From: a virus
Lineage: Duplodnaviria; Caudoviricetes
DNA: 61,544 nt
Reading direction: 5' to 3' (one strand)
Virus record (IMG/VR): IMGVR_UViG_3300044998_000395
Location: 1-61,544 of that record
Shown: piece by piece, positions 1,678 to 61,000 of the stretch
Layout of the letters: every line of letters starts with the position of its first letter
Numbering within the stretch: position 1 is the first letter of the stretch
Notes under the pieces: model-generated
Told to the model about the DNA's origin: nothing
What the model saw: only the letters and a program-made list of their open reading frames with translations
Databases searched by the model: none
Translations under genes and position numbers: made by a program

Positions 1678-2106
1678 TCACTTAGGCCACCAGTAGTCCG
1701 CGTCCGGGTCGTCGACCCAGTCAAAGCGCAGGTACCAATCGAGCGTGTCGTCGTCGCCTTCGTATGCCTTGCGCATCAAGTTGGACCGGTGCGAGCTGTG
1801 AAGCCGCTCGTCGCCGAGCCAAGGAGGCTGTGGGCACGGTGGGAAGTTCATCGCCTGCACTTGCGCTTTCACCGAGTCCCTGAAGCCGCGCTCGATCCAC
1901 TCATCGCAGACCGCGAACGTGTACTCAGCCAGCCAGAGCTCGTGTCCCGCCCACATCCGCGTCGCCGGGTGGTTGCGCCAGCCCTTCGTCTCGCCGCGCA
2001 GTGCCTTGAGGATCTGTAGGCACTCTACGCGCTGCTTGCCGAGCCGGCGGTCGTCGAGCGCGGCGGCCGACTGCGCGAAGTTGGCGTATGGCAGGAAGGT
2101 CTGCAT
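1678..2106 (-). CDS. Pyrimidine-dimer DNA glycosylase / endonuclease V-like protein (MSMEG_6728 type)
   Basis: MQTFLPY..F..SA..LD.RRLGKQRVE, W.NHPA..MW.G, PPWLG...H.SHRSNL. Confidence 0.85.
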   Translation of the reverse strand: MQTFLPYANFAQSAAALDDRRLGKQRVECLQILKALRGETKGWRNHPATRMWAGHELWLAEYTFAVCDEWIERGFRDSVKAQVQAMNFPPCPQPPWLGDERLHSSHRSNLMRKAYEGDDDTLDWYLRFDWVDDPDADYWWPK

Positions 2107-7400: not shown

Positions 7401-7630
7401 ATGCTCTGGACGTGCTCGAGAAGGAAAGTCATCTCGCAGTCAGCCCTGTCAGCCGTGTCAGTGAAACCGTGAATCGTGATGAACGCCTTGTCATCGTGGG
7501 TACGCTCCTTGCGGTACTCGCGCCACTCGTCGAGCGCTTGACGCAGCACCTGCTCGGTACCGCACACGGAGCACGGGCCCCAAGGACGCTCGATCGTCAG
7601 CCTCCAGTATTCCTTCATCGGTTGCTCCAT
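7379..7630 (-). CDS. Hypothetical protein
   Basis: 83-aa ORF filling the gap in the operon. Confidence 0.55.
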   Translation of the reverse strand: MEQPMKEYWRLTIERPWGPCSVCGTEQVLRQALDEWREYRKERTHDDKAFITIHGFTDTADRADCEMTFLLEHVQSMCLIQMR

Positions 7631-8112
7631 GCGATGTTGCCTGCGTCGTCGATGATGAGCGCCGCTTTGTTGAGCTCGTTGATGTACTTGATGGACATCG
7701 TGGCAGACTCGCCCCAGCGCGACCAGTAGTCGTCGTCGCCGTTCATGAACACAAATCGCTCGATGCCAGCCTGCAGCATGAACACGGTGCAGCGATCGCA
7801 GGCAACGCCGCTAGTAACGTACGCTGTGTAGCCGCGCACGGGCTCGTGGCAGTTGAGCACTGCGTTGACCTCACCATGCATGACCCGGCTGTACTTCTCC
7901 GGGCGGTCAACTGCGTCCTCCTCGACCGGGCAGCCGCGCACGAAGCCGTTGTACCCGAGGCCGGCGATCGTACGATCCGGCCTCACGATCACGGTGGCGT
8001 GCTTCGTGCTAGGATCCTTCGACCACGAGCGCACGTGCTTAGCGAGGTCGAGGAACCGCACGTCCCACTTATCGGCTGGCCGTCGTTCGGCGGTTGGCAC
8101 GAGAGAGAACAT
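7615..8112 (-). CDS. dCMP deaminase
   Basis: WD.RFL.LA......SKDPSTK, GYNG, HGEVNA, CDRC zinc motif. Confidence 0.9.
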   Translation of the reverse strand: MFSLVPTAERRPADKWDVRFLDLAKHVRSWSKDPSTKHATVIVRPDRTIAGLGYNGFVRGCPVEEDAVDRPEKYSRVMHGEVNAVLNCHEPVRGYTAYVTSGVACDRCTVFMLQAGIERFVFMNGDDDYWSRWGESATMSIKYINELNKAALIIDDAGNIAWSNR

Positions 8113-8689
8113 CGTCGAGCTCCTGCTGTCGCGCGAGGTACTTATCCACGACTTCCTCCGCGCGTTCGGAGGGCCAGCCGTCCTCGGCGTACATCACGAG
8201 GTCGATGTCGAACTCACGAGACTGGATGATGTCGACATACTTACGGTTGACGCCGAGGATCCCGTCGATCTTGTACATCTCCTCACGGTCCTTGTTCGCG
8301 AACTGGGTCTTGAGAAACTCGTCGGTCCTCGCGACGCAGACGACGGTGAACCCGCCGACTTGCCAGATCGCGGACTGGAGCAGCTTGAGCTCGATGTCGT
8401 TCATCCGCTCCTGCTCAAGGAACTGACGGCCGTAGGCCTGCCTGCTCATGTGAAAGCGGTCCTGCACGACGGCCCTGCGCACGTGCGGGAGGTAGTCCCA
8501 GTAGCGATCGAACGCGACGGGCAGCCGCGTGAAGTGCGAGTAGATGTGCGGGTAGCGCCGGCGGGCGAGCGCCTTCTGGCACTCGAGTGCGAGCGTGGTC
8601 TTACCCACCAAGTCCGGGCCCTCTATTATAAGGATGTTACACACTCCTTTATAAGCGCGATGAGTTCGTTCTTCCAACGCGTTTCCCAA
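8069..8689 (-). CDS. dNMP/thymidylate kinase-like P-loop kinase (true start probably near 8644)
   Basis: IIEGPDLVGKTT P-loop and VQDRF motif. Confidence 0.85.
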   Translation of the reverse strand: MGNALEERTHRAYKGVCNILIIEGPDLVGKTTLALECQKALARRRYPHIYSHFTRLPVAFDRYWDYLPHVRRAVVQDRFHMSRQAYGRQFLEQERMNDIELKLLQSAIWQVGGFTVVCVARTDEFLKTQFANKDREEMYKIDGILGVNRKYVDIIQSREFDIDLVMYAEDGWPSERAEEVVDKYLARQQELDDVLSRANRRTTASR

Positions 8690-9019: not shown

Positions 9020-9625
9020 TTACTTGGAGTTGCGCGCCTTCAACCCGGACAGAACGTCCAAGGCGCGGGCGCGAACGACTTCGTCTTCGTCGTTGATGAG
9101 CCGTTCAACGAGAAGGAAGATCGCGTCACCGTAGACGAGATTGGCCTCGGCCATCACCGAGATCGCGGTAGCGCGGACTGCCGGCCGCTCGTCGTTGATG
9201 CAGTCCTTGATGAGCTGCTCGAGCCGACCGCGAACCTCGTTCGACAGCTTGGCCTCGAGCAGTCGGTCAGACGCGACAGCCAGCGCCCACCGCGCGACCT
9301 TCTCGGTTGACGCGATGGTGGCGCCCTCGAGGACGAAGGCCTGCTCCGGCGTGATGTCGCCGTAGTACTCCTTGCCCTCGAGGTGCCGGATGAAGGCCTT
9401 CTCGTCGTCCTTCAAGTCGGCGATGACACTGGTCCCGTCGCACTTGTTCTGACAGCCGACCGGGTCCGTGCAGCTCGTGTTACAGCAGTTGTAACACGCA
9501 CGGATGCCGACCTTGCCAGAACACGCCCGGGTGTAGCACTCGGCCCCGGTCTCACCAAGGGCCACGCACGCCACAGCGCCGAGCACGATCCCAACCGCGA
9601 ACAGCAACGATGCGTACTTGCGCAT
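9020..9625 (-). CDS. Secreted or membrane protein with Cys-rich domain and HEAT-like repeats
   Basis: Hydrophobic N-terminus, CYTRAC...CYNCCNTSC....CQNKC, and DERPAVRATA / DEDEVVRARALDVL repeats. Confidence 0.65.
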   Translation of the reverse strand: MRKYASLLFAVGIVLGAVACVALGETGAECYTRACSGKVGIRACYNCCNTSCTDPVGCQNKCDGTSVIADLKDDEKAFIRHLEGKEYYGDITPEQAFVLEGATIASTEKVARWALAVASDRLLEAKLSNEVRGRLEQLIKDCINDERPAVRATAISVMAEANLVYGDAIFLLVERLINDEDEVVRARALDVLSGLKARNSK

Positions 9626-9653: not shown

Positions 9654-10607
9654 CTACAAGAGGTTGCGCAGAAGATCGGTGGACGGATCCACCGCGAGAG
9701 TTGGCTGCCACTTCTTGCAGCACACGGTCAGCAGCTCCTGCGCGAGGCCACCGACCCTCCCAACGTCTTGCGCGCTCACGTCAGCCGTAGTCCGTGACCG
9801 CATCTCGAGTTGTATCGCCGCGGCGAGGTTGCCCTCGCTCGACGGGTTGAACGCGTATGAGCCCATGCCGTTCGTGTCACGTGCCTCGATGACCTTGTCC
9901 TTGTTGCGGTCGTACACGTGCATCGACCCAGCGACGTGCGTGTAGGTGCCGGGCTCGACGCCGAGCCGCAACGCAACGATGCGCTGGAACGTCGTGAAGG
10001 CGAACACGTCGTACGGCGTACCGAGCCACAAGTCGTTGCTGCGCATCGTCACCACGGAGTGCAGCTTGTCGTTGCGAAGCAGGAACTGGATCGCGACGGT
10101 ACACGGGATGTCGTTGATCTCGCCGGTCTGCCCGTGGACGAGATCGCCATGGTCCCACATGCCGACGAGGCACTGGCGCGTGTTGGGCGACTTCTTGATC
10201 ATTGCCACCGCGGCGTCGAGCTGCGACGGGAACTCGAGCCCGGTCGTCGCCTTCGCTAGAAGGAAGGCAGGCGAGTCCACCCACCGCTTGCCGTAGGCGC
10301 CGTGCGCGCGGTTCGTGCCGGGCTGGGCGAAGCGACGGTATTGCGGAGCGTAGGCCTCGACGACTCGCACGTCGTCGCTGCCGCTCAGGTACCACAGCGT
10401 CTCGGCCGCCGCGTACACGAGCGAGGCCTTGCGCACTGACGCGAGGCAGTGGTCGATGTTGCTCAGGCGGAAGCCGAAGCCGGTGAGCTCCGTACAACCG
10501 CCGTCACGCGACTCGAGCCGGCTGCCGTGCTTGAAGATGTCGTGAGCGATGCCAACCCACGCCTCGTTCATGGTGTCATACGTGATCATGAGACCTCGCA
10601 TCAGCAC
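9654..10607 (-). CDS. Thymidylate synthase-family enzyme of dCMP-modifying type (dCMP hydroxymethylase-like)
   Basis: ETLWYLSG, catalytic DIPCT, and RSNDLWLGTPYD with Asp at the specificity position (as in T4 gp42) rather than Asn. Also GSMHVY. Confidence 0.85.
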   Translation of the reverse strand: MLMRGLMITYDTMNEAWVGIAHDIFKHGSRLESRDGGCTELTGFGFRLSNIDHCLASVRKASLVYAAAETLWYLSGSDDVRVVEAYAPQYRRFAQPGTNRAHGAYGKRWVDSPAFLLAKATTGLEFPSQLDAAVAMIKKSPNTRQCLVGMWDHGDLVHGQTGEINDIPCTVAIQFLLRNDKLHSVVTMRSNDLWLGTPYDVFAFTTFQRIVALRLGVEPGTYTHVAGSMHVYDRNKDKVIEARDTNGMGSYAFNPSSEGNLAAAIQLEMRSRTTADVSAQDVGRVGGLAQELLTVCCKKWQPTLAVDPSTDLLRNLL

Positions 10608-10824
10608 AGGAAGCGAGTTCGTACACGCGCTCGTCTCCTGGGAAGAATGACTCGGTGCGAACGTAGTAAGATCCCTTGTACGAAAGGATCTTCCAGTCGT
10701 GGTTGCTCGTCATAGGGCCGTGAAGCTTGTCGTACAGTGCCTCTGGCGGCAGGGCCTTGAACCCGTCCTGCCTACGACCTGGCGGCATCTCACGCTTACG
10801 ACAGAGGATGATCTTCTCGATCAT
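10576..10824 (-). CDS. Hypothetical protein
   Basis: ATGA-coupled 82-aa ORF. Confidence 0.55.
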   Translation of the reverse strand: MIEKIILCRKREMPPGRRQDGFKALPPEALYDKLHGPMTSNHDWKILSYKGSYYVRTESFFPGDERVYELASCADARSHDHV

Positions 10825-12002
10825 GCTGGCTTCTCCGGACAGTAGTCGGTCATGAGGAAAGACTTCTCGACCTTGCCGTGCGAGTCGTCACCGTGCCACT
10901 GGCCAGTGGACTTGTAGTACGACGACTCCCAGTCCTCGCCACCCCACGAGTCCTCGAGGTACAGCTTTGCCTGCTCCGCGAGCCACGTGCCGACGGCCGG
11001 CACAATGCCCTTGCCGATCTGACCGATGGGCATCTCACCAAGAGGAGTGACGCCTTCTGGCCAGCCCATGAGCAACGACAGCTCTCGCAGCGTGAGCGTA
11101 CGGTCAAGTGTAGGGTGAACGAACCGGCCGGCCGAGCTGCTGATCACCGGCATGAACCCGTCACCGCGCACACGCATCAGCGAGTGCATTGAGAAGGGCA
11201 TGTCGGACGACCGCTCCCGCCACGTGCGGGCGTACTTTGCTGACACCCGCTCGAGCACGTCGTACTTCTCGCGAGCGAATCGGTTGAGGTCCCATCCTTG
11301 CGGCAGGTGCGGCATGACCCGCCACTCGTCGTCCGTCTTGTCGTTCGCGTGGTCCGGCCCGTAGATCGACTTCTTGCCGAACCGCGAGAACTGCACGTCG
11401 GTCTTGAGCAGGTCGTCACGGAAGAGAACGTCCCCGCAGGTCGCGTGCCGCTCGAGCAACGGCGGTGGCTTGATGTTGAACGGCTTATCCGCCTTGTAGG
11501 CCATGAAGAAATAGCGCTTGCGGTGCTGCGGGTTGCCGAACGACGCCGCGTTGAGCATGAGGTGCGCGATGCGGTAGCCGTTCGGCACGAAGATCTTGTC
11601 ACGCAGGTAGTCGAGCAGCTCGCGACCGACGGTCATCGCCTGCTGAACCGATTCCCAGCACACGAGCTGGTAGCCGTGCTTCACGCCGTAGTGGCATAGA
11701 TCGTGGATGTCACGGGTAGGCGCAGACCACGCCCCGTGAACGGCCTCGTCGTGTCCAGCGGTCGTGCAGCTGAAGCCCGTGCACCGCGGGTTACCGAACA
11801 GCATCACGGCGCCGGGCGATGGCGACGGCCAGTCCTCCCAGGTGTTACCCACGATGAAGTCGATGCCCGCCGCCTTGACGGTCTTTTCGCCGAGGCCGTG
11901 GATCTCGAGCTGTCTTGGTACGTCCATCACCTCGCGCACACCGAAGGAGAACCCGCCGGCGAACACGTGGCAGCCGTCAGCGACGAATCTTGGCATCTTC
12001 AA
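10821..12002 (-). CDS. Divergent DNA cytosine-C5 methyltransferase-like protein
   Basis: Motif I-like VFAGGF, IV GNPRCTGFS, VI WESV, VIII PQHRKRYF, IX RTLTLRELSLLMGWP, X QIGKGI. Confidence 0.8.
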   Translation of the reverse strand: MKMPRFVADGCHVFAGGFSFGVREVMDVPRQLEIHGLGEKTVKAAGIDFIVGNTWEDWPSPSPGAVMLFGNPRCTGFSCTTAGHDEAVHGAWSAPTRDIHDLCHYGVKHGYQLVCWESVQQAMTVGRELLDYLRDKIFVPNGYRIAHLMLNAASFGNPQHRKRYFFMAYKADKPFNIKPPPLLERHATCGDVLFRDDLLKTDVQFSRFGKKSIYGPDHANDKTDDEWRVMPHLPQGWDLNRFAREKYDVLERVSAKYARTWRERSSDMPFSMHSLMRVRGDGFMPVISSSAGRFVHPTLDRTLTLRELSLLMGWPEGVTPLGEMPIGQIGKGIVPAVGTWLAEQAKLYLEDSWGGEDWESSYYKSTGQWHGDDSHGKVEKSFLMTDYCPEKPA

Positions 12003-12471
12003 GTACCTTCTTCAAGTTCGGCGGCTGATACGACGCGCCCTTGTTCCGGAGGCGAGGGTCGTCAACGCCGGGCGTGCGGACCGCCTTGGTCATGTTGCTG
12101 CGGTGGATCTCTTCGCCTACCTCGTCGAGCGGGATGCCGAACGCGACCGCCGCACCGTGCACGACGTAGTCAAGGTCGCCGAGGCCGTCGGCCAACTTCA
12201 CCTCATCGCCCTCGGCGAGGGCATGCATGACTTCGGCCGCCTCCTCGAGGATCAAGTGAGCCCGCATCAGCCGGCTGTTGAACGGTAAGTCTTTACCGCC
12301 CGCGTTGATCGTGCCCTTGGCCAGCTTCACGGACAGGCTGTGCAGGATCTTGCCCGCGAGCTCGAGTTCGTACGACGCAGCGTCGCACTTACAATCATCG
12401 ACCGCGAGGTCGCGATCGAAGCCATGCTTGTCATGGAACTCACGAACCAGCTGGGTCATCGTCTTCTGCAT
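11977..12471 (-). CDS. MazG-like all-alpha NTP pyrophosphohydrolase (dUTPase/dCTPase candidate)
   Basis: LILEEAAE...ADGLGDLDYVVHG...EIHRSNMTK. Confidence 0.85.
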   Translation of the reverse strand: MQKTMTQLVREFHDKHGFDRDLAVDDCKCDAASYELELAGKILHSLSVKLAKGTINAGGKDLPFNSRLMRAHLILEEAAEVMHALAEGDEVKLADGLGDLDYVVHGAAVAFGIPLDEVGEEIHRSNMTKAVRTPGVDDPRLRNKGASYQPPNLKKVLEDAKIRR

Positions 12472-13420
12472 ACTCAGGATCTCCTTTGATGTTCGACTGC
12501 ACGTCTTTCATGATCACGGCGATCTCGCCGTCAGCGAACCGGTTGCACCGCATGCGGAAGATGTGGTTCCACTGGGCGAGCGACGCGGAGAAGATCATCT
12601 GCGTCTCGAGGCCCATTGGGAGCATCAGCCGCGCAGCGCCGCGGGCCTGCTTGCGAGCGAAGTCCAGTGTCTCCTTCTTCTCATCGACGAGCCAGGTCTC
12701 GAGCTTCTTGACGATCAAGTCGTAGGCGGATTGGCAGCCGCCCTTCACGCCGTCGATGTACTCCTCGAACTCGAAGTCGTGCTCGTCGAAGTACTCGCGA
12801 AGCAGCGGGTGATCGAGGATCGGCGATGACGACTCATCAACGTACCGCGTGCTTCGCTGGCTGATGGCTGACCAGTCGCCGTGCCTGACCTGCTCATGCG
12901 ACCAACCGCGGGAGCCGCTGATCCACGCGCTGACCCAGACCTCGTTGACGTTCGCAGGCTTGACGAGCCGGCATGTCGTGTCGGACGTCAGCACAAGCGG
13001 CACGACCTGCGGCGCGAGGTTGTAAGCCTCCTGGGCGATGAGCGTGTACAGCGGGCAGGCCGTGTCCCACTCGAGCACGTGCCGGAGGTTGAGCACCATG
13101 CGAACCTTGCCGCGCGGCCTGTGCAGCCACAGCGCCGGCTTGTTCCAGCACAGCTCTGACCACTGCGGCTTCCACGTGTTGAACTCGAGCACGAACGTGC
13201 AGTGCTCGTACACGCTGAGGTGTCCGACTTCCTTGACGTGCTTGTGCCAATCGGCCGAAGACCGGCCCGTGCCAAGCGAATCGTAACACACGCGGCCTGC
13301 GACCTCGGCCAGTAGCTCGAGCGGAGTACCGACGAGCTGGCCCGGCTTGGGCTGGCCCATGGCCTTCGGAACGTTGAAGAAGTCAGGCATCGCTGTGTTG
13401 TATACTGTCTCAGAACTCAT
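12440..13420 (-). CDS. thyX: FAD-dependent thymidylate synthase
   Basis: AGRVCY, GHLSVYEH, SRGWSHEQVRH...SQRSTRY, ARLMLP. Confidence 0.9.
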   Translation of the reverse strand: MSSETVYNTAMPDFFNVPKAMGQPKPGQLVGTPLELLAEVAGRVCYDSLGTGRSSADWHKHVKEVGHLSVYEHCTFVLEFNTWKPQWSELCWNKPALWLHRPRGKVRMVLNLRHVLEWDTACPLYTLIAQEAYNLAPQVVPLVLTSDTTCRLVKPANVNEVWVSAWISGSRGWSHEQVRHGDWSAISQRSTRYVDESSSPILDHPLLREYFDEHDFEFEEYIDGVKGGCQSAYDLIVKKLETWLVDEKKETLDFARKQARGAARLMLPMGLETQMIFSASLAQWNHIFRMRCNRFADGEIAVIMKDVQSNIKGDPEYAEDDDPAGS

Positions 13421-18650: not shown

Positions 18651-19697
18651 TCAGGTTCTTTCCACCGCATTGCCGCCCTCCATCGTCTTGATGATGTCAT
18701 CCAGCTCCGCGAGCAGATCTTGGTTGAGCGCGTACTGCGCCTTCTTACGAAAGTCACGCAGCCGGTCGAGAGGCGACTTGGCAGACGGGATGAACCACTT
18801 CCGCACGTGCCGCAAGATGGACTTCGCGGCCTCGGTCACGAGCTGCCACTTGAGCCCGGCCGCTTGTGCCTTCTCGACTTCCTCTTGATTCGTCACAGGG
18901 ACTACGTCGGGTGGCACGGTGCGCTCGATCGCGGCGATGATCCGTGACTGGGCGCCAACATGCGACGTGACGTACTCGACATCGGGCGCTCTCGAGCTGA
19001 CGAGCTCCGCCGCGCGATCATCGTCTCGGTCAGCCCAGATGCGCGAGGTCGCATACTTGACGTTGAACCCGTCAACCATTCCGCGGTCGCGGTCAAGCGG
19101 CAGTTCCTCCGGACGGAACGCGTACCCATGCTTCATGTCCTTCAGCGTCGTGACGTATAGACCGCCAACGTAGATGCGACCCGCCTGGTCGTCGCTAAGC
19201 ACCCCGTGTAGCGACGGGTCGATCATGTTGGGCTTGATCTCGTCCCACGTCTGCTGGCCGACGCCATACACGAGGAACTCGACGCCCCACTCGGAGTTCT
19301 CCTCTTGGTGGACGTTGATCTTCAGGACTTCGCAGTCGAAGTTCTCGTCATGCTCGATGACAGGAACCCAGAACTCGTTGTCCATGATCACACGAACTGG
19401 GTAGCCCATCCGAGCCAGCACGAGCAGCGCGAGCTTGTAGCCCTCACCGAACTTGCCGCGCAGGCCCTTATCGTTGTCCTTGTCAGTCTCGCCGAGCAGT
19501 AGCGTCTTACGATCGAGACGACCGTCGCTCGTCTTGATGCGAAGCTGCTGGTTGTCAGGGTCATACTTGACCTCAGCCGTGCAGCCAGGCGACCGGTCCC
19601 GTTGGTCGTATGCGTTCTGCACGAGCTCGCGGACGGCTTCCCAGAAGCCCCAGTGAGCGGCGTACTTCGGCGACAGAGTGAGTGTGTATTGTTTCAT
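18651..19697 (-). CDS. GHKL/HATPase-domain protein
   Basis: AVRELVQNAYD (N box) and GKFGEGYKLALLVL (G box). Confidence 0.8.
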   Translation of the reverse strand: MKQYTLTLSPKYAAHWGFWEAVRELVQNAYDQRDRSPGCTAEVKYDPDNQQLRIKTSDGRLDRKTLLLGETDKDNDKGLRGKFGEGYKLALLVLARMGYPVRVIMDNEFWVPVIEHDENFDCEVLKINVHQEENSEWGVEFLVYGVGQQTWDEIKPNMIDPSLHGVLSDDQAGRIYVGGLYVTTLKDMKHGYAFRPEELPLDRDRGMVDGFNVKYATSRIWADRDDDRAAELVSSRAPDVEYVTSHVGAQSRIIAAIERTVPPDVVPVTNQEEVEKAQAAGLKWQLVTEAAKSILRHVRKWFIPSAKSPLDRLRDFRKKAQYALNQDLLAELDDIIKTMEGGNAVERT

Positions 19698-55115: not shown

Positions 55116-56237
55116 TCACTCGAGCCATTCGACACCTCCCATCTTCTCGCCCGCCAGCGCCCTCTCGAGGGCCGAAAAGTCGGGCGTCGTCTTCTGGCGC
55201 AGATGCTCTACCCATTCGCGGTCGCTCCAGTGGCCCCACGGCTCACCCGCCTTGATTCGTGACGGGTGGTCGAGCGGGACGTACTTTGTCCGGAGGTCGT
55301 AGGTATGTGTGTCGCCGACGACCGGCCTGGGCGTGCAACCAGCGAGCACGTACTCGCGGAGCTTGCCCGTGTTGAAGTTCGACTCGATCGGGATCATCGG
55401 GCCGGATGAGTAGTGCCGGAGCTTGTCCTGCACCTCGTCATGCTTCAGGAGTCCACGGTGCTTGTCCGCCCACCCGGTCTCCTCCCAGCCAGACCCGTAG
55501 ATCGCGAAGTCCTCAGTACAGCTGTTGAGCACAGCCTCCCAAGTCGCGCCGCGACGACCATTGCCGTTCACGCGCTTGTCATTGATGTGGCTGTGGGCCA
55601 GCACGATGATCGCAGGCACCTGTGCGACGGCATAGGGCTCGAGGTACGACATCCCGTAGGACCACCAGTTCTCGGCCGAGGCGTCGACCTCGACGAGGCG
55701 CTGCTTACGCCCGCGCACGATGCGGGTGAACTCGCTTGAACGCTGCGAGAGCAGGCTGGCCGGGACGGCCCGGGGCCAGTAGTGCATCTCGTGGTCCTTC
55801 GGGTAGTTGCGCGGGTCGTTGATGACCACGTGCCTCGGGAGATCGAGCGCATGGCAGGCCTTGAGGCAAGGCATTACCGTGCGGGTCGCCCACATCTGGC
55901 ACCGCACGCCCCACTCGTTCGCTGGGTCGCTGATCGTAGGCGCCGCGCCTGCGACGTTGAGGCAGACGTCCGGCTTCCAAGCGGCGAGCTCGGCGATGGC
56001 AGCGTCCGCCCGCTCGTGGAATAGCGACGGGTCGTCGAGGTCGTCGAGCCCGCTCATGTTCACGTTGAACACGGGACAGCCGAAGTCGCCCTGCGCCATG
56101 CCGAAGACGCAGACCTCGTGCTGCGAGTCCTTGAGGTAGCGCAGCACGCCGAGCGCGTCTTGGTTGCCGGCGACGGGCGAGGCCTTGTGGTTGTCGGCGT
56201 ACAGGACTGTGCCCGTACGCATCAGAGCGATCCTCAT
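55116..56237 (-). CDS. GT-B glycosyltransferase resembling T4 DNA beta-glucosyltransferase
   Basis: Colinear motifs versus T4 BGT as recalled: MRIALMRTG/MKIAIINMG, INDPR/FTDIR, LLSQ/VISQ, IYG/FFG, NFNTGKLRE/NFITLRVWE, YD/FD. Confidence 0.7.
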   Translation of the reverse strand: MRIALMRTGTVLYADNHKASPVAGNQDALGVLRYLKDSQHEVCVFGMAQGDFGCPVFNVNMSGLDDLDDPSLFHERADAAIAELAAWKPDVCLNVAGAAPTISDPANEWGVRCQMWATRTVMPCLKACHALDLPRHVVINDPRNYPKDHEMHYWPRAVPASLLSQRSSEFTRIVRGRKQRLVEVDASAENWWSYGMSYLEPYAVAQVPAIIVLAHSHINDKRVNGNGRRGATWEAVLNSCTEDFAIYGSGWEETGWADKHRGLLKHDEVQDKLRHYSSGPMIPIESNFNTGKLREYVLAGCTPRPVVGDTHTYDLRTKYVPLDHPSRIKAGEPWGHWSDREWVEHLRQKTTPDFSALERALAGEKMGGVEWLE

Positions 56238-56312
56238 TGTGTCCCCTTGCAGATGCAGTCGTTGCAGATGTGCGAGCCGTCCATGAGCGGGATCAGCATC
56301 TCGGGCTCCGAT

Positions 56313-56780
56313 TTACGTAAGGCTGATAGCACGGATGCCCTCGTTTCGGTTGATGCAGACCGCCCGGGCCGTGTCGACGTCGGGCGCGTACGGTTTCCTG
56401 TCATTGACCAGCAGCCGCGGGCCATTACCGCAGCCGTAGATGACCCGGTGGACGGCCAGACCCAATCGAACCAGCTCGGACTCGACGTGCATTCTGGTGG
56501 CTTCCGGCCGCCCCGTCGTGACGATAATCTGGTGGCCGGCGTCCCACCATTCCTTGAGTCGTTCCCGGGAACCGATTAGAGGAATAAGTGGCTCGTTCCA
56601 CTCGCGATGCTCGACGAGAGTGCCGTCGAGGTCTACGAAGATCGTATGCGTCGCAAGCTTGCGAGCCCGTCCCTCGTCGGCAGGCTGGGCCAGTGCCTGA
56701 TCAGCCTTGCCCAGTGAGTCACGAGGAACGCCCAGTCCAGTTCGGTCGCCCACGTCGGTAACGGTCTCGGGTCCTGCCAC
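56313..56780 (-). CDS. HAD-superfamily phosphatase (start uncertain)
   Basis: IFVDLDGTL motif I, IIVTTGR motif II, LVND motif IV. Confidence 0.8.
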   Translation of the reverse strand: MAGPETVTDVGDRTGLGVPRDSLGKADQALAQPADEGRARKLATHTIFVDLDGTLVEHREWNEPLIPLIGSRERLKEWWDAGHQIIVTTGRPEATRMHVESELVRLGLAVHRVIYGCGNGPRLLVNDRKPYAPDVDTARAVCINRNEGIRAISLT

Positions 56781-57262
56781 TTTCGTTCCTCCCAGCGCAT
56801 GCAGTAAGACTGCAGCAGCTTGCCTCGGTCCAGCTCGGCGCACACCATGCCACGGGCGTCGCCCGGGTCGATGAACACAACCGTCCCGCACGGCTTGATG
56901 ATGACGTTCTCGAAGGTCAGGTCGCCGTGCACGGCCTGCACCGAGAGGATGCGGTGGTTCTGAATGACGCGTACGGCCTCGTGAACAACGTCGTCGTCGC
57001 AACGATCGAGCACGTACGCGCAGTAGTCGTTGACGACGTCCCGCGAGAGGACATGGCGGTTCTCGCGCCACACCCAGGTCTGCGCAGCAAACTTGACCAG
57101 CAGGACCTCGTCCGCGGTCGGGTGTCGCCCGTCAACGAAGTCGTACTCGTAGGCCTCGCGCGGACGCAGGCCGCTGGGCCGCATGTGAGCGGGCACGCAG
57201 TTGTAGAACTCCGGCACCTTGCCCGGCTTGATCACGAGCTTGCCGTCACGCATCATCTTCAT
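56633..57262 (-). CDS. APH/choline kinase-like phosphotransferase (putative sugar kinase)
   Basis: HGDLTFENV catalytic loop, FIDP metal motif, D.GKLLQS. ATGA-coupled start at 57262. Confidence 0.8.
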   Translation of the reverse strand: MKMMRDGKLVIKPGKVPEFYNCVPAHMRPSGLRPREAYEYDFVDGRHPTADEVLLVKFAAQTWVWRENRHVLSRDVVNDYCAYVLDRCDDDVVHEAVRVIQNHRILSVQAVHGDLTFENVIIKPCGTVVFIDPGDARGMVCAELDRGKLLQSYCMRWEERKWQDPRPLPTWATELDWAFLVTHWARLIRHWPSLPTRDGLASLRRIRSS

Positions 57263-57843
57263 TGCTGTCTCCAGTAAGCGGCGTACAGCTCGGGAGTACC
57301 GATGTCCCACCAGCCGTCCGCCTCGCGCTCGACTTGCTTGATCCCGGCGAGCGAAGGCCACCCGTCTGGGTCCCATGACTTGCCCGGCCCGACCACCCAA
57401 GGTGTCGTGAGCGAGAAGGGCATGAAGCTCGACCCGCCGCGATCGAGCCGTTCGCCGTCGGCTCCTACGAGGTGCGGTCTCCGCCAAGCGGGCACGCGCC
57501 GTATGACGACACACTCGACTTCGTTGACGACCTCGGCCTCGGGGTAGATGTTGTCAGCGACGACGATCATCGCGCGCACGGAGGCCTTCACGAGGTTGAT
57601 TGCGTCGCCTACTCCCTTGGCCTCGGGCTGGTAGACGTAGGAGTACTTCTGACCCGGGCGGAAGTGCTCGATGACGTCCACGAGCGGCGAGTTCGGCGGG
57701 ACGACGATCACGGTGTGCGAGACGCCATGACGCTTGAGGTAGTCTAGCCCGCTAAGGCAGACCGGTGACCCGTCCTTCGTCGGAAGGAGCGGCTTGTTGG
57801 GCAGGCGAGTCGCAAGACCGCCCGCGAGCATGATGCCGATCAT
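57259..57843 (-). CDS. NDP-sugar nucleotidyltransferase (RmlA/GalU-like N-terminal domain)
   Basis: GIMLAGGLATRLPNKPLLP, YVYQPEAKGVGDAI, ADNIY, WWDIGTPE. Confidence 0.88.
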   Translation of the reverse strand: MIGIMLAGGLATRLPNKPLLPTKDGSPVCLSGLDYLKRHGVSHTVIVVPPNSPLVDVIEHFRPGQKYSYVYQPEAKGVGDAINLVKASVRAMIVVADNIYPEAEVVNEVECVVIRRVPAWRRPHLVGADGERLDRGGSSFMPFSLTTPWVVGPGKSWDPDGWPSLAGIKQVEREADGWWDIGTPELYAAYWRQQ

Positions 57844-58489: not shown

Positions 58490-58605
58490 CGGCCGTCTAG
58501 CAGGCGGTAGTGAATCACGCCGTCGCGCACAGCCTCGATCTCACGGGTCACGCCGGTCGGCGTGAACTCCCACTCGGAACCGACCTCAGGCAAGTTCGCA
58601 TGCAC
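58390..58605 (-). CDS. Small hypothetical protein
   Basis: GGAGG RBS. PEVGSEW SH3-like beta pattern. Confidence 0.45.
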   Translation of the reverse strand: MHANLPEVGSEWEFTPTGVTREIEAVRDGVIHYRLLDGRCAGRRCWLTEEEWRQSRSCYRPRSTGGVATGR

Positions 58606-61000
58606 CTCCGCTGCAAGCAGGATCAGATGCCCGGCTCGACGTCTCGCTGATCACGGAGTAGTCGACCGGGCGGTAGTTCTCGATCAGGTACTGCCACCGC
58701 GCCTCGTCAGCGGGAGTCGTGACCTCCTCACGTGGCATAAACGGGATGCCCTTATCGCCCATGCGCGGGAGGAAGGCCATCGCCGACACGCGCCGCCGCT
58801 CGTCGTAGAAGCGACGAGTCACCTCGTCCCACTCGTCCTCGCTCACGACGACCGTGCAGCTGACGTTGTGCGACAGCCCAGGGATGATCTGCTCATCGCG
58901 GGCGCCGGGCATGACCCACGATTCGTAGACTGTGAAGATCCGCTCCATAAAGTCGGACGCGGGCATCTGCTTGACAGTCTCGGCGGCGTCGGGCGCCTTC
59001 ACGCAGAACGTGATGCACCAGTTGCCATCCGGCTTGGTCTCCACCATGTGCGGGTTGACTTCCTTGAACCGCTGCGCCACGAGCGAGGTAGGCGACTCAG
59101 TGATGCGGCGGAAGTAGCGCCGCGCGTGGTGCGGATGAATGCCGCTACCGACGGTACCGAGCACGAGCGACGCCGTGCCACTCGGCTTGACCGTCGTGCA
59201 CCGCGCCGATGGCCGGATCCCTACCTGGTCAGCGACGCGGGCGTTGACCTGCTTGACGATCGTCGCGCCGCGACGCAGGACGTCTGGGTCGAACGCGACC
59301 ATCGGTCGATCGCACATGCCTGTGAGGCCAACACCGATGAGAGCCTCGCGCTCAGTGATGCGCTCGGTCACCGGGCCGAGGTACGGCATCTTCGTGAACG
59401 TGGCCTGCAGCGTGCCGAGCGTCGCAGCGGCGTGACAAGCCTGCAGGAACTGCGCCTCGTCCTCGCATGCCGCGACGTTGACCTCGCACAGGTTGCAGAA
59501 CTGGAAGCCGGTGTCATGGCCATAGAAGCCGATCGCGACCGCGTCGCTGCTGTTCATCGACACGACCGTCGGACCGGTCGAGCGGGCCACTTCGTAGGCG
59601 CGGTAGTCATAGTCGAGCGAACGGTCGACCTCGTGCTGGATCATACCCGGCCGTTCGATGACGCCCTGAGACGAACCAAGGCTCAGCTCGAACAGCTTGC
59701 CGAGGTCTGTGCCAGCCGGCCAGTACCTCACACGCTCGTTGGGTAGCGTCAGCTTCGGGTACATCCCGATCTCGGCGCACGGGTTGCAGCCGCAGTCAGG
59801 GTGGGCCAGCCACACGACGCCCGGGTCGCCGTACGCCTTTGCGAGCTTGATGAGGCGCTCGACGTATTCACGTGCCGGTGGCTCGTCCTTCAAGCAGCCG
59901 GCGCTGATGTTCGCCATGCGCCGCCAGAAGTTCTTACCCGACCATTCGTAGTTGCCCGGCACCTTGGCGTGCGCCATCTCGCCATCCTCGGGCGAGAAGA
60001 TCGCGATGAGCGAGCTGCGGCGGATGCCGCCGGCCAGCACCGCCTCGGCGATCTTACACACGAGGTCGAACGCCTCGATGGGTCGCATCTTGCGGAACGC
60101 ACACTCGTCGAGCTGGACTCGGATCTGGTCGTGCAGGCGCTTGAGCGGCAGGTGGCCCGGCGCCCGCCCACCCGACGACTTGAGCTTGGCGCCCTTGGGT
60201 CGGATCTGCGAGTAGTCGAACTCGACGTAGTCGCCGGTCACGAAGTACGACCGCACGAGCTCGCCGACCGAGTTGGCCCAGCCCTCGATGTCGTCAGTGA
60301 CGGTGTGGTGCCGCACGCGGTCGGTGTCGACCTTCATCACGTCGGGCAACTGCTCGACGTGACGATACTGCACGCTAAAACCGACGCCGCACCCGGCGAG
60401 CAGGCAGTAGAAGATCTCCTGGAAGACGCGGAGGCGGTTGATGAGCGTGAACGAGCAGTTGTACATCCGCACGTTGTGCTGGAAGACGCCGGCACCACCG
60501 AACTGCATGCCGCGCATCGACCCGAGCACCTTATTGCCGCGCACGAGGTCGAAGACACCGTCGAGCTCGAGGTACGGAAAGCGCTTGCGGAACATCGTCT
60601 CGTTGCGCTCGATCGTGTCGGACCACGACTCGAACTTGGCGAGGTCCTCACGGTACATTCCGTACTTGCTGGCGGCGACGAACTCGCTGACGGCACGCGG
60701 GTCCGGGTCCAGCCGCTGTTCCCGCACGGCACGCCGCTTGTCGCGGAACGACGTGTAGTGGTCGGCCGTGCCCGGGAACCCGGAGTGCACGAGCTCCTTG
60801 ATGACGGCCGTCTCGAGGTCTCCGATCGAGACGTCGCCCGAGAACTGTGCAGCCACGCGGGCCGCCATGTCGTTCACGCCCTCGGGCACGTGGCCCAGCG
60901 AGTCGTTGAACGACTTGAGCAGCGCGTTGACGATCTTGCGCTGGTCGAACTTCTGGAGAGTACCGTCTCTCTTTATGACGCGAGTTGGTCCCAAGTGCAC
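58586..61000 (-). CDS. nrdJ: Class II (B12-dependent) ribonucleotide reductase with ATP-cone
   Basis: VIKRDG ATP cone, YNCSF, GCGVGFSVQ, AGGIRRSS, NPCAEI, CNLCEVN, TVKPSGT, C-terminal ACSGGACE. No small-subunit gene present. Confidence 0.92.
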   Translation of the reverse strand: MHLGPTRVIKRDGTLQKFDQRKIVNALLKSFNDSLGHVPEGVNDMAARVAAQFSGDVSIGDLETAVIKELVHSGFPGTADHYTSFRDKRRAVREQRLDPDPRAVSEFVAASKYGMYREDLAKFESWSDTIERNETMFRKRFPYLELDGVFDLVRGNKVLGSMRGMQFGGAGVFQHNVRMYNCSFTLINRLRVFQEIFYCLLAGCGVGFSVQYRHVEQLPDVMKVDTDRVRHHTVTDDIEGWANSVGELVRSYFVTGDYVEFDYSQIRPKGAKLKSSGGRAPGHLPLKRLHDQIRVQLDECAFRKMRPIEAFDLVCKIAEAVLAGGIRRSSLIAIFSPEDGEMAHAKVPGNYEWSGKNFWRRMANISAGCLKDEPPAREYVERLIKLAKAYGDPGVVWLAHPDCGCNPCAEIGMYPKLTLPNERVRYWPAGTDLGKLFELSLGSSQGVIERPGMIQHEVDRSLDYDYRAYEVARSTGPTVVSMNSSDAVAIGFYGHDTGFQFCNLCEVNVAACEDEAQFLQACHAAATLGTLQATFTKMPYLGPVTERITEREALIGVGLTGMCDRPMVAFDPDVLRRGATIVKQVNARVADQVGIRPSARCTTVKPSGTASLVLGTVGSGIHPHHARRYFRRITESPTSLVAQRFKEVNPHMVETKPDGNWCITFCVKAPDAAETVKQMPASDFMERIFTVYESWVMPGARDEQIIPGLSHNVSCTVVVSEDEWDEVTRRFYDERRRVSAMAFLPRMGDKGIPFMPREEVTTPADEARWQYLIENYRPVDYSVISETSSRASDPACSGGACELA

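What the first reader, a model, noticed from the sequence alone, without database searches (positions are those of the whole stretch)
55116..57843. Self-contained sugar-activation operon feeding a T4 BGT-like DNA glycosyltransferase (locus 2): candidate new cytosine hypermodification
Seen: four tightly linked genes downstream of RNR, namely a nucleotidyltransferase (LAGGLATRL, WWDIGT), an APH-type kinase (HGDLTFEN, IDP), a HAD phosphatase (DLDGT, TGR) and a GT-B enzyme with motifs colinear to T4 beta-glucosyltransferase. Established: T4 BGT uses host UDP-glucose and needs no donor-synthesis genes. Kinase, phosphatase and nucleotidyltransferase is the logic of NDP-heptose-type pathways, and phages adding arabinose to modified C carry their own donor genes. 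Inference: with the Asp-type TS homologue at 9654-10607, this phage installs an unusual, self-synthesised sugar on hydroxy(methyl)cytosine as anti-restriction/anti-CRISPR armour. No isomerase gene is visible, so the sugar cannot be named and may differ from known glucosyl or arabinosyl marks. This is the best candidate for an undescribed system in the window.
Basis: partly seen in the sequence, partly recalled or inferred. Interest (0 to 1): 0.88.

Follow-up and report, generated by a model that had tools for sequence, protein, structure and literature searches.

The report
Phage DNA sugar-tagging gene cluster
An uncultured phage carries four linked genes that most likely build an activated sugar and attach it to modified cytosine in its own DNA, an uncharacterised variant of a protective strategy already known from T4 and RB69.

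The parts
57259..57843 (-). Sugar-1-phosphate nucleotidyltransferase, 194 aa (makes the NDP-sugar)
   Evidence: Pfam NTP_transferase 5.1e-5 and NTP_transf_3. Family of 37 proteins. Profile vs PDB: G1P thymidylyltransferase 3hl3 at 1.3e-16, full length. hhalign vs RB69p053: 89.7%, E 1.9e-6, N-terminal 95 residues.
56633..57262 (-). APH/choline-kinase-fold small-molecule (sugar) kinase, 209 aa
56313..56753 (-). Small HAD phosphatase (conserved domain 56319-56648; start codon uncertain)
   Evidence: DLDGT and TTGR motifs. Hydrolase_3 1e-4. phrog_1238 1.1e-7, the family of RB69p051 (1.9e-42). HMM domain limits. No canonical start near the domain.
55116..56237 (-). T4 BGT-like GT-B glycosyltransferase, 373 aa, predicted DNA (5hmC) glycosyltransferase
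9654..10607 (-). Thymidylate-synthase homologue with dCMP hydroxymethylase (T4 gp42-type) signature
   Evidence: Pfam Thymidylat_synt 1.6e-26. E. coli numbering: D143, C146, D169, D177.
11977..12471 (-). MazG-like nucleotide pyrophosphohydrolase (candidate dCTPase)
   Evidence: phrog_671 'nucleotide pyrophosphohydrolase' 7.8e-23. The dCTPase role is inferred.
8069..8689 (-). dTMP-kinase-like nucleotide kinase (candidate 5hm-dCMP kinase)
   Evidence: phrog_761 thymidylate kinase 3.2e-6; TIGR00041 4.4e-4; AAA_16. The role is inferred.
7615..8112 (-). dCMP deaminase
   Evidence: Pfam dCMP_cyt_deam_1 5.3e-12.
12440..13420 (-). ThyX-type thymidylate synthase (keeps dTMP supply separate from the TS homologue)
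   Evidence: Pfam Thy1 2.2e-21.
10821..12002 (-). C5-cytosine DNA methyltransferase-like protein next to the TS homologue (role in the pathway unknown)
   Evidence: Pfam DNA_methylase 4.9e-12; phrog_116 1.7e-18. Homologues lie beside TS homologues in L001 and L002.

Best explanation
The four genes form one phage DNA-glycosylation module. The kinase phosphorylates a host sugar phosphate at its anomeric carbon. The HAD phosphatase removes the distal phosphate (or the two steps run in the reverse order). The nucleotidyltransferase converts the resulting sugar-1-phosphate into an NDP-sugar. The BGT-like GT-B enzyme then transfers that sugar onto the hydroxyl of 5-hydroxymethylcytosine in newly replicated phage DNA. 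The 5hmC comes from a T4-style route encoded elsewhere in the genome: a MazG-like dCTPase, a gp42-type dCMP hydroxymethylase and a nucleotide kinase. ThyX and dCMP deaminase supply dTMP. Shown here: the folds and families of the four proteins, their conserved linkage, the BGT-like structure, the TS signature, and the absence of an isomerase. Inferred: DNA as acceptor, 5hmC as the base, the order of kinase and phosphatase, the nucleotide used, the identity of the sugar, and the anti-restriction role.

For: Donor module: NT profile vs RmlA-type enzyme 1.3e-16. Kinase fold APH/ChoK/glucosamine kinase, with RB69ORF052c among 6 viral hits at E<=1e-3. HAD in phrog_1238 together with RB69p051.

Linkage: by HMM, all three sugar genes lie beside a GT-family member in 7 of 10 contig groups, at least two of them in 9 of 10, in four different gene orders. 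5 of 5 viral loci found with the NT profile hold the GT. A single ~650-aa ORF that the window's HAD and kinase both match exists in 21 other viral loci.

Base: 6 of 6 TS homologues from phages with this GT family have D143/C146/D169/D177. A TS was found in 3 of 5 further records, including 2 of 2 complete ones. In L001 the GT cluster lies about 3 kb from the TS homologue, and in L006/7/9 it lies next to ThyX.

No second GT of this family in the genome.
Against: There are no experimental data on this phage's DNA. The GT has no sequence-level match to T4 BGT (hhalign 0.24% with the close-family profile; no Pfam hit at E<=1), so the link to BGT rests on a predicted structure and weak motifs. In the window the TS homologue is 45 kb from the GT cluster. 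One GT lineage (L002/L010) has no sugar genes within 10 kb upstream or 6 kb downstream, so the GT family can work without them. Loci found via the kinase or NT profiles are biased toward showing linkage; among loci found by the GT itself only 2 of 3 lineages with context carry the module. NT-HAD-kinase modules also occur in giant-virus contigs, where DNA glycosylation is not expected. A C5-methyltransferase-like gene next to the TS is hard to reconcile with complete replacement of C.
Confidence: 0.68

Rival explanations
1. It is the published arabinose system in split form. The kinase phosphorylates host arabinose-5-phosphate (from KdsD in a Gram-negative host), the HAD removes the 5-phosphate, the NT makes UDP-arabinofuranose, and the GT arabinosylates the modified cytosine.
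For: The enzyme logic and gene order (NT, kinase, HAD) match RB69 p053-p052-p051 (PMC13326640 section 27). HAD is in the same PHROG. Kinase vs RB69p052: hhalign 91.5% and Foldseek TMq 0.68. Glucosamine kinase 6hwl is the top PDB fold both for this kinase and, per Table 1 of that paper, for the RB69 kinase domain. TerL relatives include Pseudomonas phages at about 33% identity, compatible with a Kdo-making host.
Confidence: 0.2
2. The product is ordinary glucosyl-5hmC. The three enzymes convert abundant glucose-6-phosphate to NDP-glucose, making the phage independent of host Pgm/GalU, and the GT works like T4 BGT.
For: The closest solved relatives of the NT are glucose-1-phosphate thymidylyltransferases (21 highest-ranked rows), and NCBIfam's best hit is a UTP-glucose-1-phosphate uridylyltransferase (1.1e-5). 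The GT is closest to a glucosyltransferase. No sugar-tailoring enzyme is encoded in the window's cluster. The absence of an isomerase fits a common hexose phosphate.
Against: NT similarity at this distance does not fix sugar specificity; the same profile also hits inositol-1-P and heptose-1-P enzymes. Three genes are a high cost for a metabolite that nearly all hosts make. Related lineages add tailoring genes, which suggests non-standard sugars. GT lineage L002/L010 manages without the module, as expected if the host donor is enough for glucose.
Confidence: 0.2
3. The GT and its donor module glycosylate something other than DNA: a virion protein, the host envelope or a small molecule.
For: The GT-B fold is shared with LPS, bacillithiol and mycothiol enzymes. 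Most GT-containing metavirome contigs in bioRxiv 10.1101/2023.12.21.572611 (about 65%, section 9) have no base-modification gene nearby. NT-HAD-kinase modules occur in giant-virus contigs.
Against: T4 BGT stands clearly above all non-DNA GTs. The cluster lies among replication and nucleotide genes (RNR, ligase) and not among structural genes. In relatives it abuts TS, ThyX or ligase. All 6 of 6 examined phages pair the GT with a gp42-type TS.
Confidence: 0.1

Closest known systems
T4 beta-glucosyltransferase (BGT) acting on 5hmC DNA
   Different: No detectable sequence-family membership. T4 uses host UDP-glucose and has no donor genes. Here three donor-synthesis genes are linked to the GT. Siphovirus-sized 61.5-kb genome, GC 63%, only distantly related to cultured phages (TerL 45% or less).
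Afh / RB69-DLP3-HY126 arabinosyl-5-hydroxycytosine pathway (PMC13326640; He et al., Nat Chem Biol 2026, seen only as a citation in that paper)
   Same: The phage makes its own NDP-sugar with an APH-fold kinase, a small HAD phosphatase (same PHROG) and a nucleotidyltransferase, in the same gene order, to glycosylate a TS-homologue-derived modified cytosine.
   Different: NT and kinase are separate genes. No arabinose-5-phosphate isomerase. The TS has D169 and not N169, which predicts 5hmC and not 5hoC. A single BGT-like GT replaces several GT4-like arabinosyltransferases. NT and kinase are similar only at profile or fold level.
Metavirome BGT-like GT-B DNA glycosyltransferases (Pyle et al., bioRxiv 10.1101/2023.12.21.572611)
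   Same: Phage GT-B enzymes modelled on T4 BGT with a proposed catalytic Asp. They are often associated with thymidylate synthases, and 'APH phosphotransferase' is listed among neighbouring genes (sections 8 and 9, and figure legends).
   Different: That work relied on the E. coli metabolite pool and did not describe a kinase/HAD/NT donor module. I could not test whether this GT family is among their hits, because supplements are closed.
Bacterial sugar-salvage and activation routes: MupP/AmgK/MurU and the HldE/GmhB heptose pathway (recalled, not tested here)
   Same: A HAD phosphatase, an anomeric kinase and a nucleotidyltransferase convert a sugar phosphate to an NDP-sugar without a mutase.
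   Different: Those are cellular cell-wall and LPS pathways, and their kinases (the GHMP-type or PfkB-type heptose kinases) are unrelated. No specific sequence match was seen here.

Membership tests
T4 BGT-like DNA glycosyltransferase (CAZy GT63; family number recalled) | GT-B fold with T4 BGT as nearest structural relative | tested here: met
T4 BGT-like DNA glycosyltransferase (CAZy GT63; family number recalled) | Catalytic Asp equivalent to BGT D100 | tested here: inconclusive
   D141 is one of 3 invariant columns in 33 diverse members and sits in VIND-PRNYP against BGT LFTD-IRLP. This is a manual motif match; no residue-level superposition was available.
T4 BGT-like DNA glycosyltransferase (CAZy GT63; family number recalled) | Sequence-profile membership | tested here: not met
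   0 Pfam families at E<=1. hhalign of A1 vs T4 BGT 0.24%; broader A8 profile 20.8%, E 0.0011. 0 of 33 family members hit a BGT Pfam family.
T4 BGT-like DNA glycosyltransferase (CAZy GT63; family number recalled) | Transfers sugar to 5hmC in duplex DNA | not testable with these tools
   Needs an enzyme assay or DNA mass spectrometry.
Afh-type phage UDP-arabinose module | Bifunctional NT-kinase polypeptide (AfhE) | tested here: not met
   There are two ORFs with a stop/start overlap at 57259-57262. The domains are homologous only at profile level.
Afh-type phage UDP-arabinose module | AfhF-like HAD phosphatase | tested here: met
   phrog_1238 1.1e-7, the family of RB69p051 at 1.9e-42. 27% identity in alignment A5.
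Afh-type phage UDP-arabinose module | Phage-encoded arabinose-5-phosphate isomerase (SIS) | tested here: not met
   PF01380 has 0 matches in the complete 61,544-bp genome, while the control rang in 14 of 14 genomes. Also 0 in G001-G007.
Afh-type phage UDP-arabinose module | 5hodCMP synthase with D169N | tested here: not met
   The window TS has RSND...D, that is D169 and D177.
T4 gp42-type dCMP hydroxymethylase | C146, N177D, L143D/E and D169 retained (criteria from PMC13326640, sections 24 and 28) | tested here: met
   Window NDIPCT ... RSNDLWLGTPYD against T4 SDFMCT ... RSNDVVFGFRND. Enzyme activity was not tested.
APH/choline-kinase-fold small-molecule kinases | Kinase fold with HxDxxxxN catalytic loop and a following D | tested here: met

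The most novel reading that the evidence does not exclude
This GT family and its isomerase-less kinase/HAD/nucleotidyltransferase module install on 5hmC a sugar not yet known on DNA. The sugar would be activated directly from a host sugar phosphate and diversified between lineages by a transaldolase, a GatZ/class II aldolase-like protein and sugar O-methyltransferases. That would make it a glycodiverse 5hmC hypermodification system parallel to the 5hoC-arabinose one. The same donor module, fused into a single NT-HAD-kinase protein next to a transaldolase, would be a general viral sugar-activation cassette reaching into giant viruses.
Probability: 0.35. Interest if true: 0.8.

Novelty: new variant of a known kind. 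Interest (0 to 1): 0.6.

Why it matters
Glycosylated cytosines protect phage DNA from restriction enzymes and CRISPR nucleases, and they are the source of tools such as T4 BGT. The only donor-synthesis route for phage DNA sugars described in the papers I read is the arabinose/5hoC pathway of T4-like phages. This locus shows the same logic joined to a different base chemistry (5hmC) and a BGT-like transferase, in unrelated uncultured phages. Three complete genomes have no isomerase, and accessory sugar enzymes vary between lineages. The locus therefore offers a compact four-gene set (plus TS and kinase) that can be rebuilt in E. coli to find new DNA sugars. It also offers a new BGT-like enzyme family that may accept other donors for 5hmC labelling.

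Tried and rejected
1. Direct sequence links failed. blastn of the cluster and tblastn of the GT and NT against 50,697 phage records gave no match. The kinase matched only Synechococcus phage S-CBWM1. A GT profile against PDB sequences gave only a chance katanin hit at E 0.4.

2. Foldseek against PDB did not list T4 BGT among the rows shown, which ran to rank 50. BGT rose to rank 1 only in the VIA-align second look. On Foldseek alone I would have called the GT a generic GT4-like enzyme.

3. A second GT ('locus 1'). The 348-aa protein at 18651-19697 is not one: hhalign vs A1 0.24%, phrog_6077 of unknown function, and atlas neighbours are ATP-binding MPN635_N proteins. The family profile finds only one GT in the genome.

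4. A post-replicative 5mC-oxidation route. No Tet_JBP match was found, but the control rang in no genome, so this says little.

5. Arabinose-5-phosphate made by an FSA-type aldolase. The TAL/FSA gene of L008 has Glu and Phe at the positions of FsaA Gln59 and Tyr131. By a rule I recall and did not read here, that marks a transaldolase, so I dropped the idea. The window has no TAL gene.

6. Promoter and terminator scans around the cluster were uninformative: 0 promoters, 3 terminator-like sites against 3.8 expected.

7. Matching 'longest contig' lengths between the GT, NT and kinase homologue lists suggest 10 shared GT+NT contigs. This is indirect and I do not count it as evidence.

8. Not run: complex prediction, the look-up of sequencing runs and read laying, because none would settle the sugar or the acceptor. 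The genome-contig scan was not used. Supplements of both key papers are closed; their supplementary tables may already list this GT family or module.
Full report
**What is there.** The window is a complete phage genome: 61,544 bp with direct terminal repeats and a CheckV completeness of 100. GC is about 63%, and by codon-position GC essentially all genes lie on the minus strand.

Downstream of an 804-aa reductase (58586-61000; adenosylcobalamin-dependent RTPR model 5.3e-56) and two small ORFs lie four genes:
- a 194-aa nucleotidyltransferase (57259-57843)
- a 209-aa kinase (56633-57262), whose ATG overlaps the preceding stop
- a small HAD phosphatase (56313-56753)
- a 373-aa protein (55116-56237)

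**The four proteins.**

*Nucleotidyltransferase.* It scores weakly in Pfam (NTP_transferase 5.1e-5). A profile of 36 sequences, the window's protein plus 35 of the 37 proteins returned (alignment A7), matches RmlA-type glucose-1-phosphate thymidylyltransferase 3hl3 at 1.3e-16 over its full length. Weaker matches include inositol-1-phosphate and heptose-1-phosphate nucleotidyltransferases.

*HAD.* It matches Hydrolase_3 (1e-4) and phrog_1238 (1.1e-7).

*373-aa protein.* It matches nothing in Pfam (E<=1), PHROGs or NCBIfam. Its family holds 25 close proteins and 236 representatives at E<=1e-3 among 1.84 billion. The model is confident (pLDDT 92.9, pTM 0.91). Foldseek places it among GT-B enzymes such as WaaG, MurG and BshA, at E about 1e-8. 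The best viral hit is named 'DNA beta-glucosyltransferase' (2e-16).

At sequence level the link to BGT is weak. hhalign gives 0.24% with the close-family profile. A broader profile gives 20.8% (E 0.0011) and places R229, K292 and E295 opposite BGT R195, R269 and E272. D141 is one of three invariant columns in 33 diverse members. It lies in VIND-PRNYP, colinear with BGT LFTD(100)-IRLP. That match is my reading of the two sequences and not a superposition.

**Is the linkage real?** I built HMMs of the four families and ran them over all fetched loci. GT-family members fall into ten contig groups:
- All three sugar genes lie beside the GT in seven groups: the window, L001 (with L004/5/17/68), L006-9, L018, L069, L071 and L072.
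- L070 has NT and HAD.
- L067 has HAD and kinase.
- L002/L010 has the GT alone.

Gene order differs between groups: NT-KIN-HAD-GT, KIN-HAD-NT-...-GT, NT-GT-HAD and HAD-KIN-GT. That argues for functional coupling and against simple inheritance of one arrangement.

There is an ascertainment caveat. L018 and L067 were found with the kinase profile, and L069-72 with the NT profile. Among lineages found with the GT itself, 2 of 3 with usable context carry the module. In the other direction, 5 of 5 viral loci found with the NT profile hold the GT.

The sugar-gene domains also occur fused. A ~650-aa ORF (L044 4447-6408) carries Pfam HAD and APH hits, and the window's HAD and kinase both match inside it. 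Its N-terminus reads like a nucleotidyltransferase, but neither Pfam nor the NT profile detects one, so I call it an NT-HAD-kinase fusion from its sequence alone. It has near full-length matches in 21 viral loci.

**Which base?** The genome holds a T4-like nucleotide toolkit:
- a thymidylate-synthase homologue (9654-10607)
- a MazG-like pyrophosphohydrolase (11977-12471)
- a dTMP-kinase-like protein (8069-8689)
- dCMP deaminase (7615-8112)
- ThyX (12440-13420)

I aligned the TS homologue with E. coli ThyA, T4 gp42 and RB69 gp48. It has D143, C146, D169 and D177. According to PMC13326640 (sections 24 and 28 read), N177D marks dCMP specificity, L143D/E marks hydroxymethylating enzymes, and D169N marks 5-hydroxy-dCMP synthases. 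The window's enzyme is therefore gp42-type and predicts 5hmC, not 5hoC.

The same signature appears in 6 of 6 TS homologues from phages carrying this GT family. A TS homologue was found in 3 of 5 further records, including 2 of 2 complete ones; the two without are 31-39% complete fragments.

**Comparison with what is known.** PMC13326640 describes how RB69 and DLP3 make NDP-arabinofuranose. It also cites He et al., Nat Chem Biol 2026, for HY126; I saw that paper only as a citation. The route uses an arabinose-5-phosphate isomerase, a bifunctional NT-kinase (AfhE) and a HAD phosphatase (AfhF), and the sugar is then placed on 5hoC.

The window's module shares this logic and gene order. Its HAD falls in the same PHROG as RB69p051. 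Its kinase and NT are related to RB69 p052 and p053 at profile level (91.5% and 89.7%), and the kinase also at fold level (RB69ORF052c, TMq 0.68).

The differences are clear:
- NT and kinase are separate genes.
- No SIS isomerase exists in the window or in two other complete genomes with the module (also none in G001).
- The TS predicts 5hmC.
- The GT is BGT-like.

A metavirome survey (bioRxiv 10.1101/2023.12.21.572611; abstract, section 9 and matched passages read) already reports BGT-like GT-B enzymes near thymidylate synthases and mentions 'APH phosphotransferase' neighbours. It does not describe a donor-synthesis module. My two further literature searches found no paper describing this combination.

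**The sugar.** I cannot name it. The missing isomerase suggests that a host sugar phosphate is used directly. The NT's nearest solved relatives act on glucose-1-phosphate, so self-made NDP-glucose is a real possibility. Arabinose from host arabinose-5-phosphate is another.

Related lineages add other enzymes:
- a transaldolase-type TAL gene inside the operon (L008; Pfam TAL_FSA 6.5e-36; residue check)
- sugar O-methyltransferase-like genes (L069, L070)
- a 280-aa protein with a GatZ/class II aldolase-like predicted fold (L069-72; TM 0.83 to a GatZ_KbaZ cluster, a lead only)

These point to ketose-phosphate or otherwise non-standard chemistry in those lineages. None of these genes is in the window.

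**Verdict.** I put 0.68 on DNA (5hmC) glycosylation with a phage-made NDP-sugar. It is a new variant of a known kind: an uncharacterised BGT-like GT family with a split, isomerase-less donor module. Interest is moderate to high because the sugar may be new and the system is small enough to rebuild.

Noticed in passing
window 56633-56753 (- strand): The HAD domain begins directly after the kinase stop codon, but no ATG, GTG or TTG lies there. The only in-frame start is GTG 56753, which overlaps the kinase by 121 nt. Relatives L006-9 have an ATG at the domain start, and L001 has ATG-ATG just before it. A non-canonical start, or a frameshift fusion to the kinase (fused forms exist elsewhere), is possible.
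   Followed up: partly
window 10821-12002 (- strand); L001 5201-6421; L002 3-512: A C5-cytosine DNA methyltransferase-like gene sits next to the TS homologue in three lineages. It has motif I-like FAGGFSFG, a retained Cys in GNPRCTGFS, and QHRKRYFF. Its role is unclear if cytosine is fully replaced by 5hmC.
   Followed up: partly
L044 3780-6408 and 20 further viral loci (L035, L038, L041, L045-47, L049-53, L055-62, L066): A ~650-aa ORF with Pfam HAD and APH hits and an NT-like N-terminus (read from its sequence; not detected by Pfam or the NT profile) is widespread in viral contigs, including giant-virus MAG contigs. In 21 of the 51 kinase-found loci a transaldolase-family gene lies next to HAD and kinase, upstream, downstream or on the opposite strand. 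This looks like a general viral sugar-activation cassette of unknown product.
   Followed up: partly
L008 1505-2146: A transaldolase-family gene is inserted between NT and kinase in one lineage of this system. The Schiff-base Lys is conserved, and Glu and Phe stand at the FsaA Gln59 and Tyr131 positions, which I recall as the transaldolase type.
   Followed up: yes
L069 3996-4544 and 5728-6570; L070 8116-8631 and 8899-9741; L071 6607-7446; L072 about 1220-2000: Other lineages of the system carry a Methyltransf_24/CmcI/TylF-like sugar O-methyltransferase and a 280-aa protein without a Pfam hit, whose atlas model resembles GatZ/KbaZ and class II aldolases. L069 also has a cytidylyltransferase-like 380-aa protein upstream.
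   Followed up: partly
L001 2419-2994: A low-GC3 GIY-YIG homing-endonuclease-like ORF is inserted between the HAD and the GT in one relative.
   Followed up: no
L001 6397-7338: This protein combines a P-loop/thymidylate-kinase-like N-terminus with a uracil-DNA-glycosylase-superfamily C-terminus. It lies between the methyltransferase-like gene and the TS homologue.
   Followed up: no
window 1678-2106 (- strand): Pyrimidine-dimer DNA glycosylase (DenV-like; Pfam Pyr_excise 8.1e-26).
   Followed up: no
window 9020-9625 (- strand): A HEAT-repeat protein is encoded between the TS homologue and the nucleotide kinase. Its function is unknown.
   Followed up: no
L039, L040, L064: These T4-like contigs have a gp42 homologue (58% identical to T4 gp42) directly upstream of an RB69p051-like HAD and a kinase. 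They may represent a hydroxymethylase-type enzyme paired with an Afh-like donor module. Signature residues were not checked.
   Followed up: no
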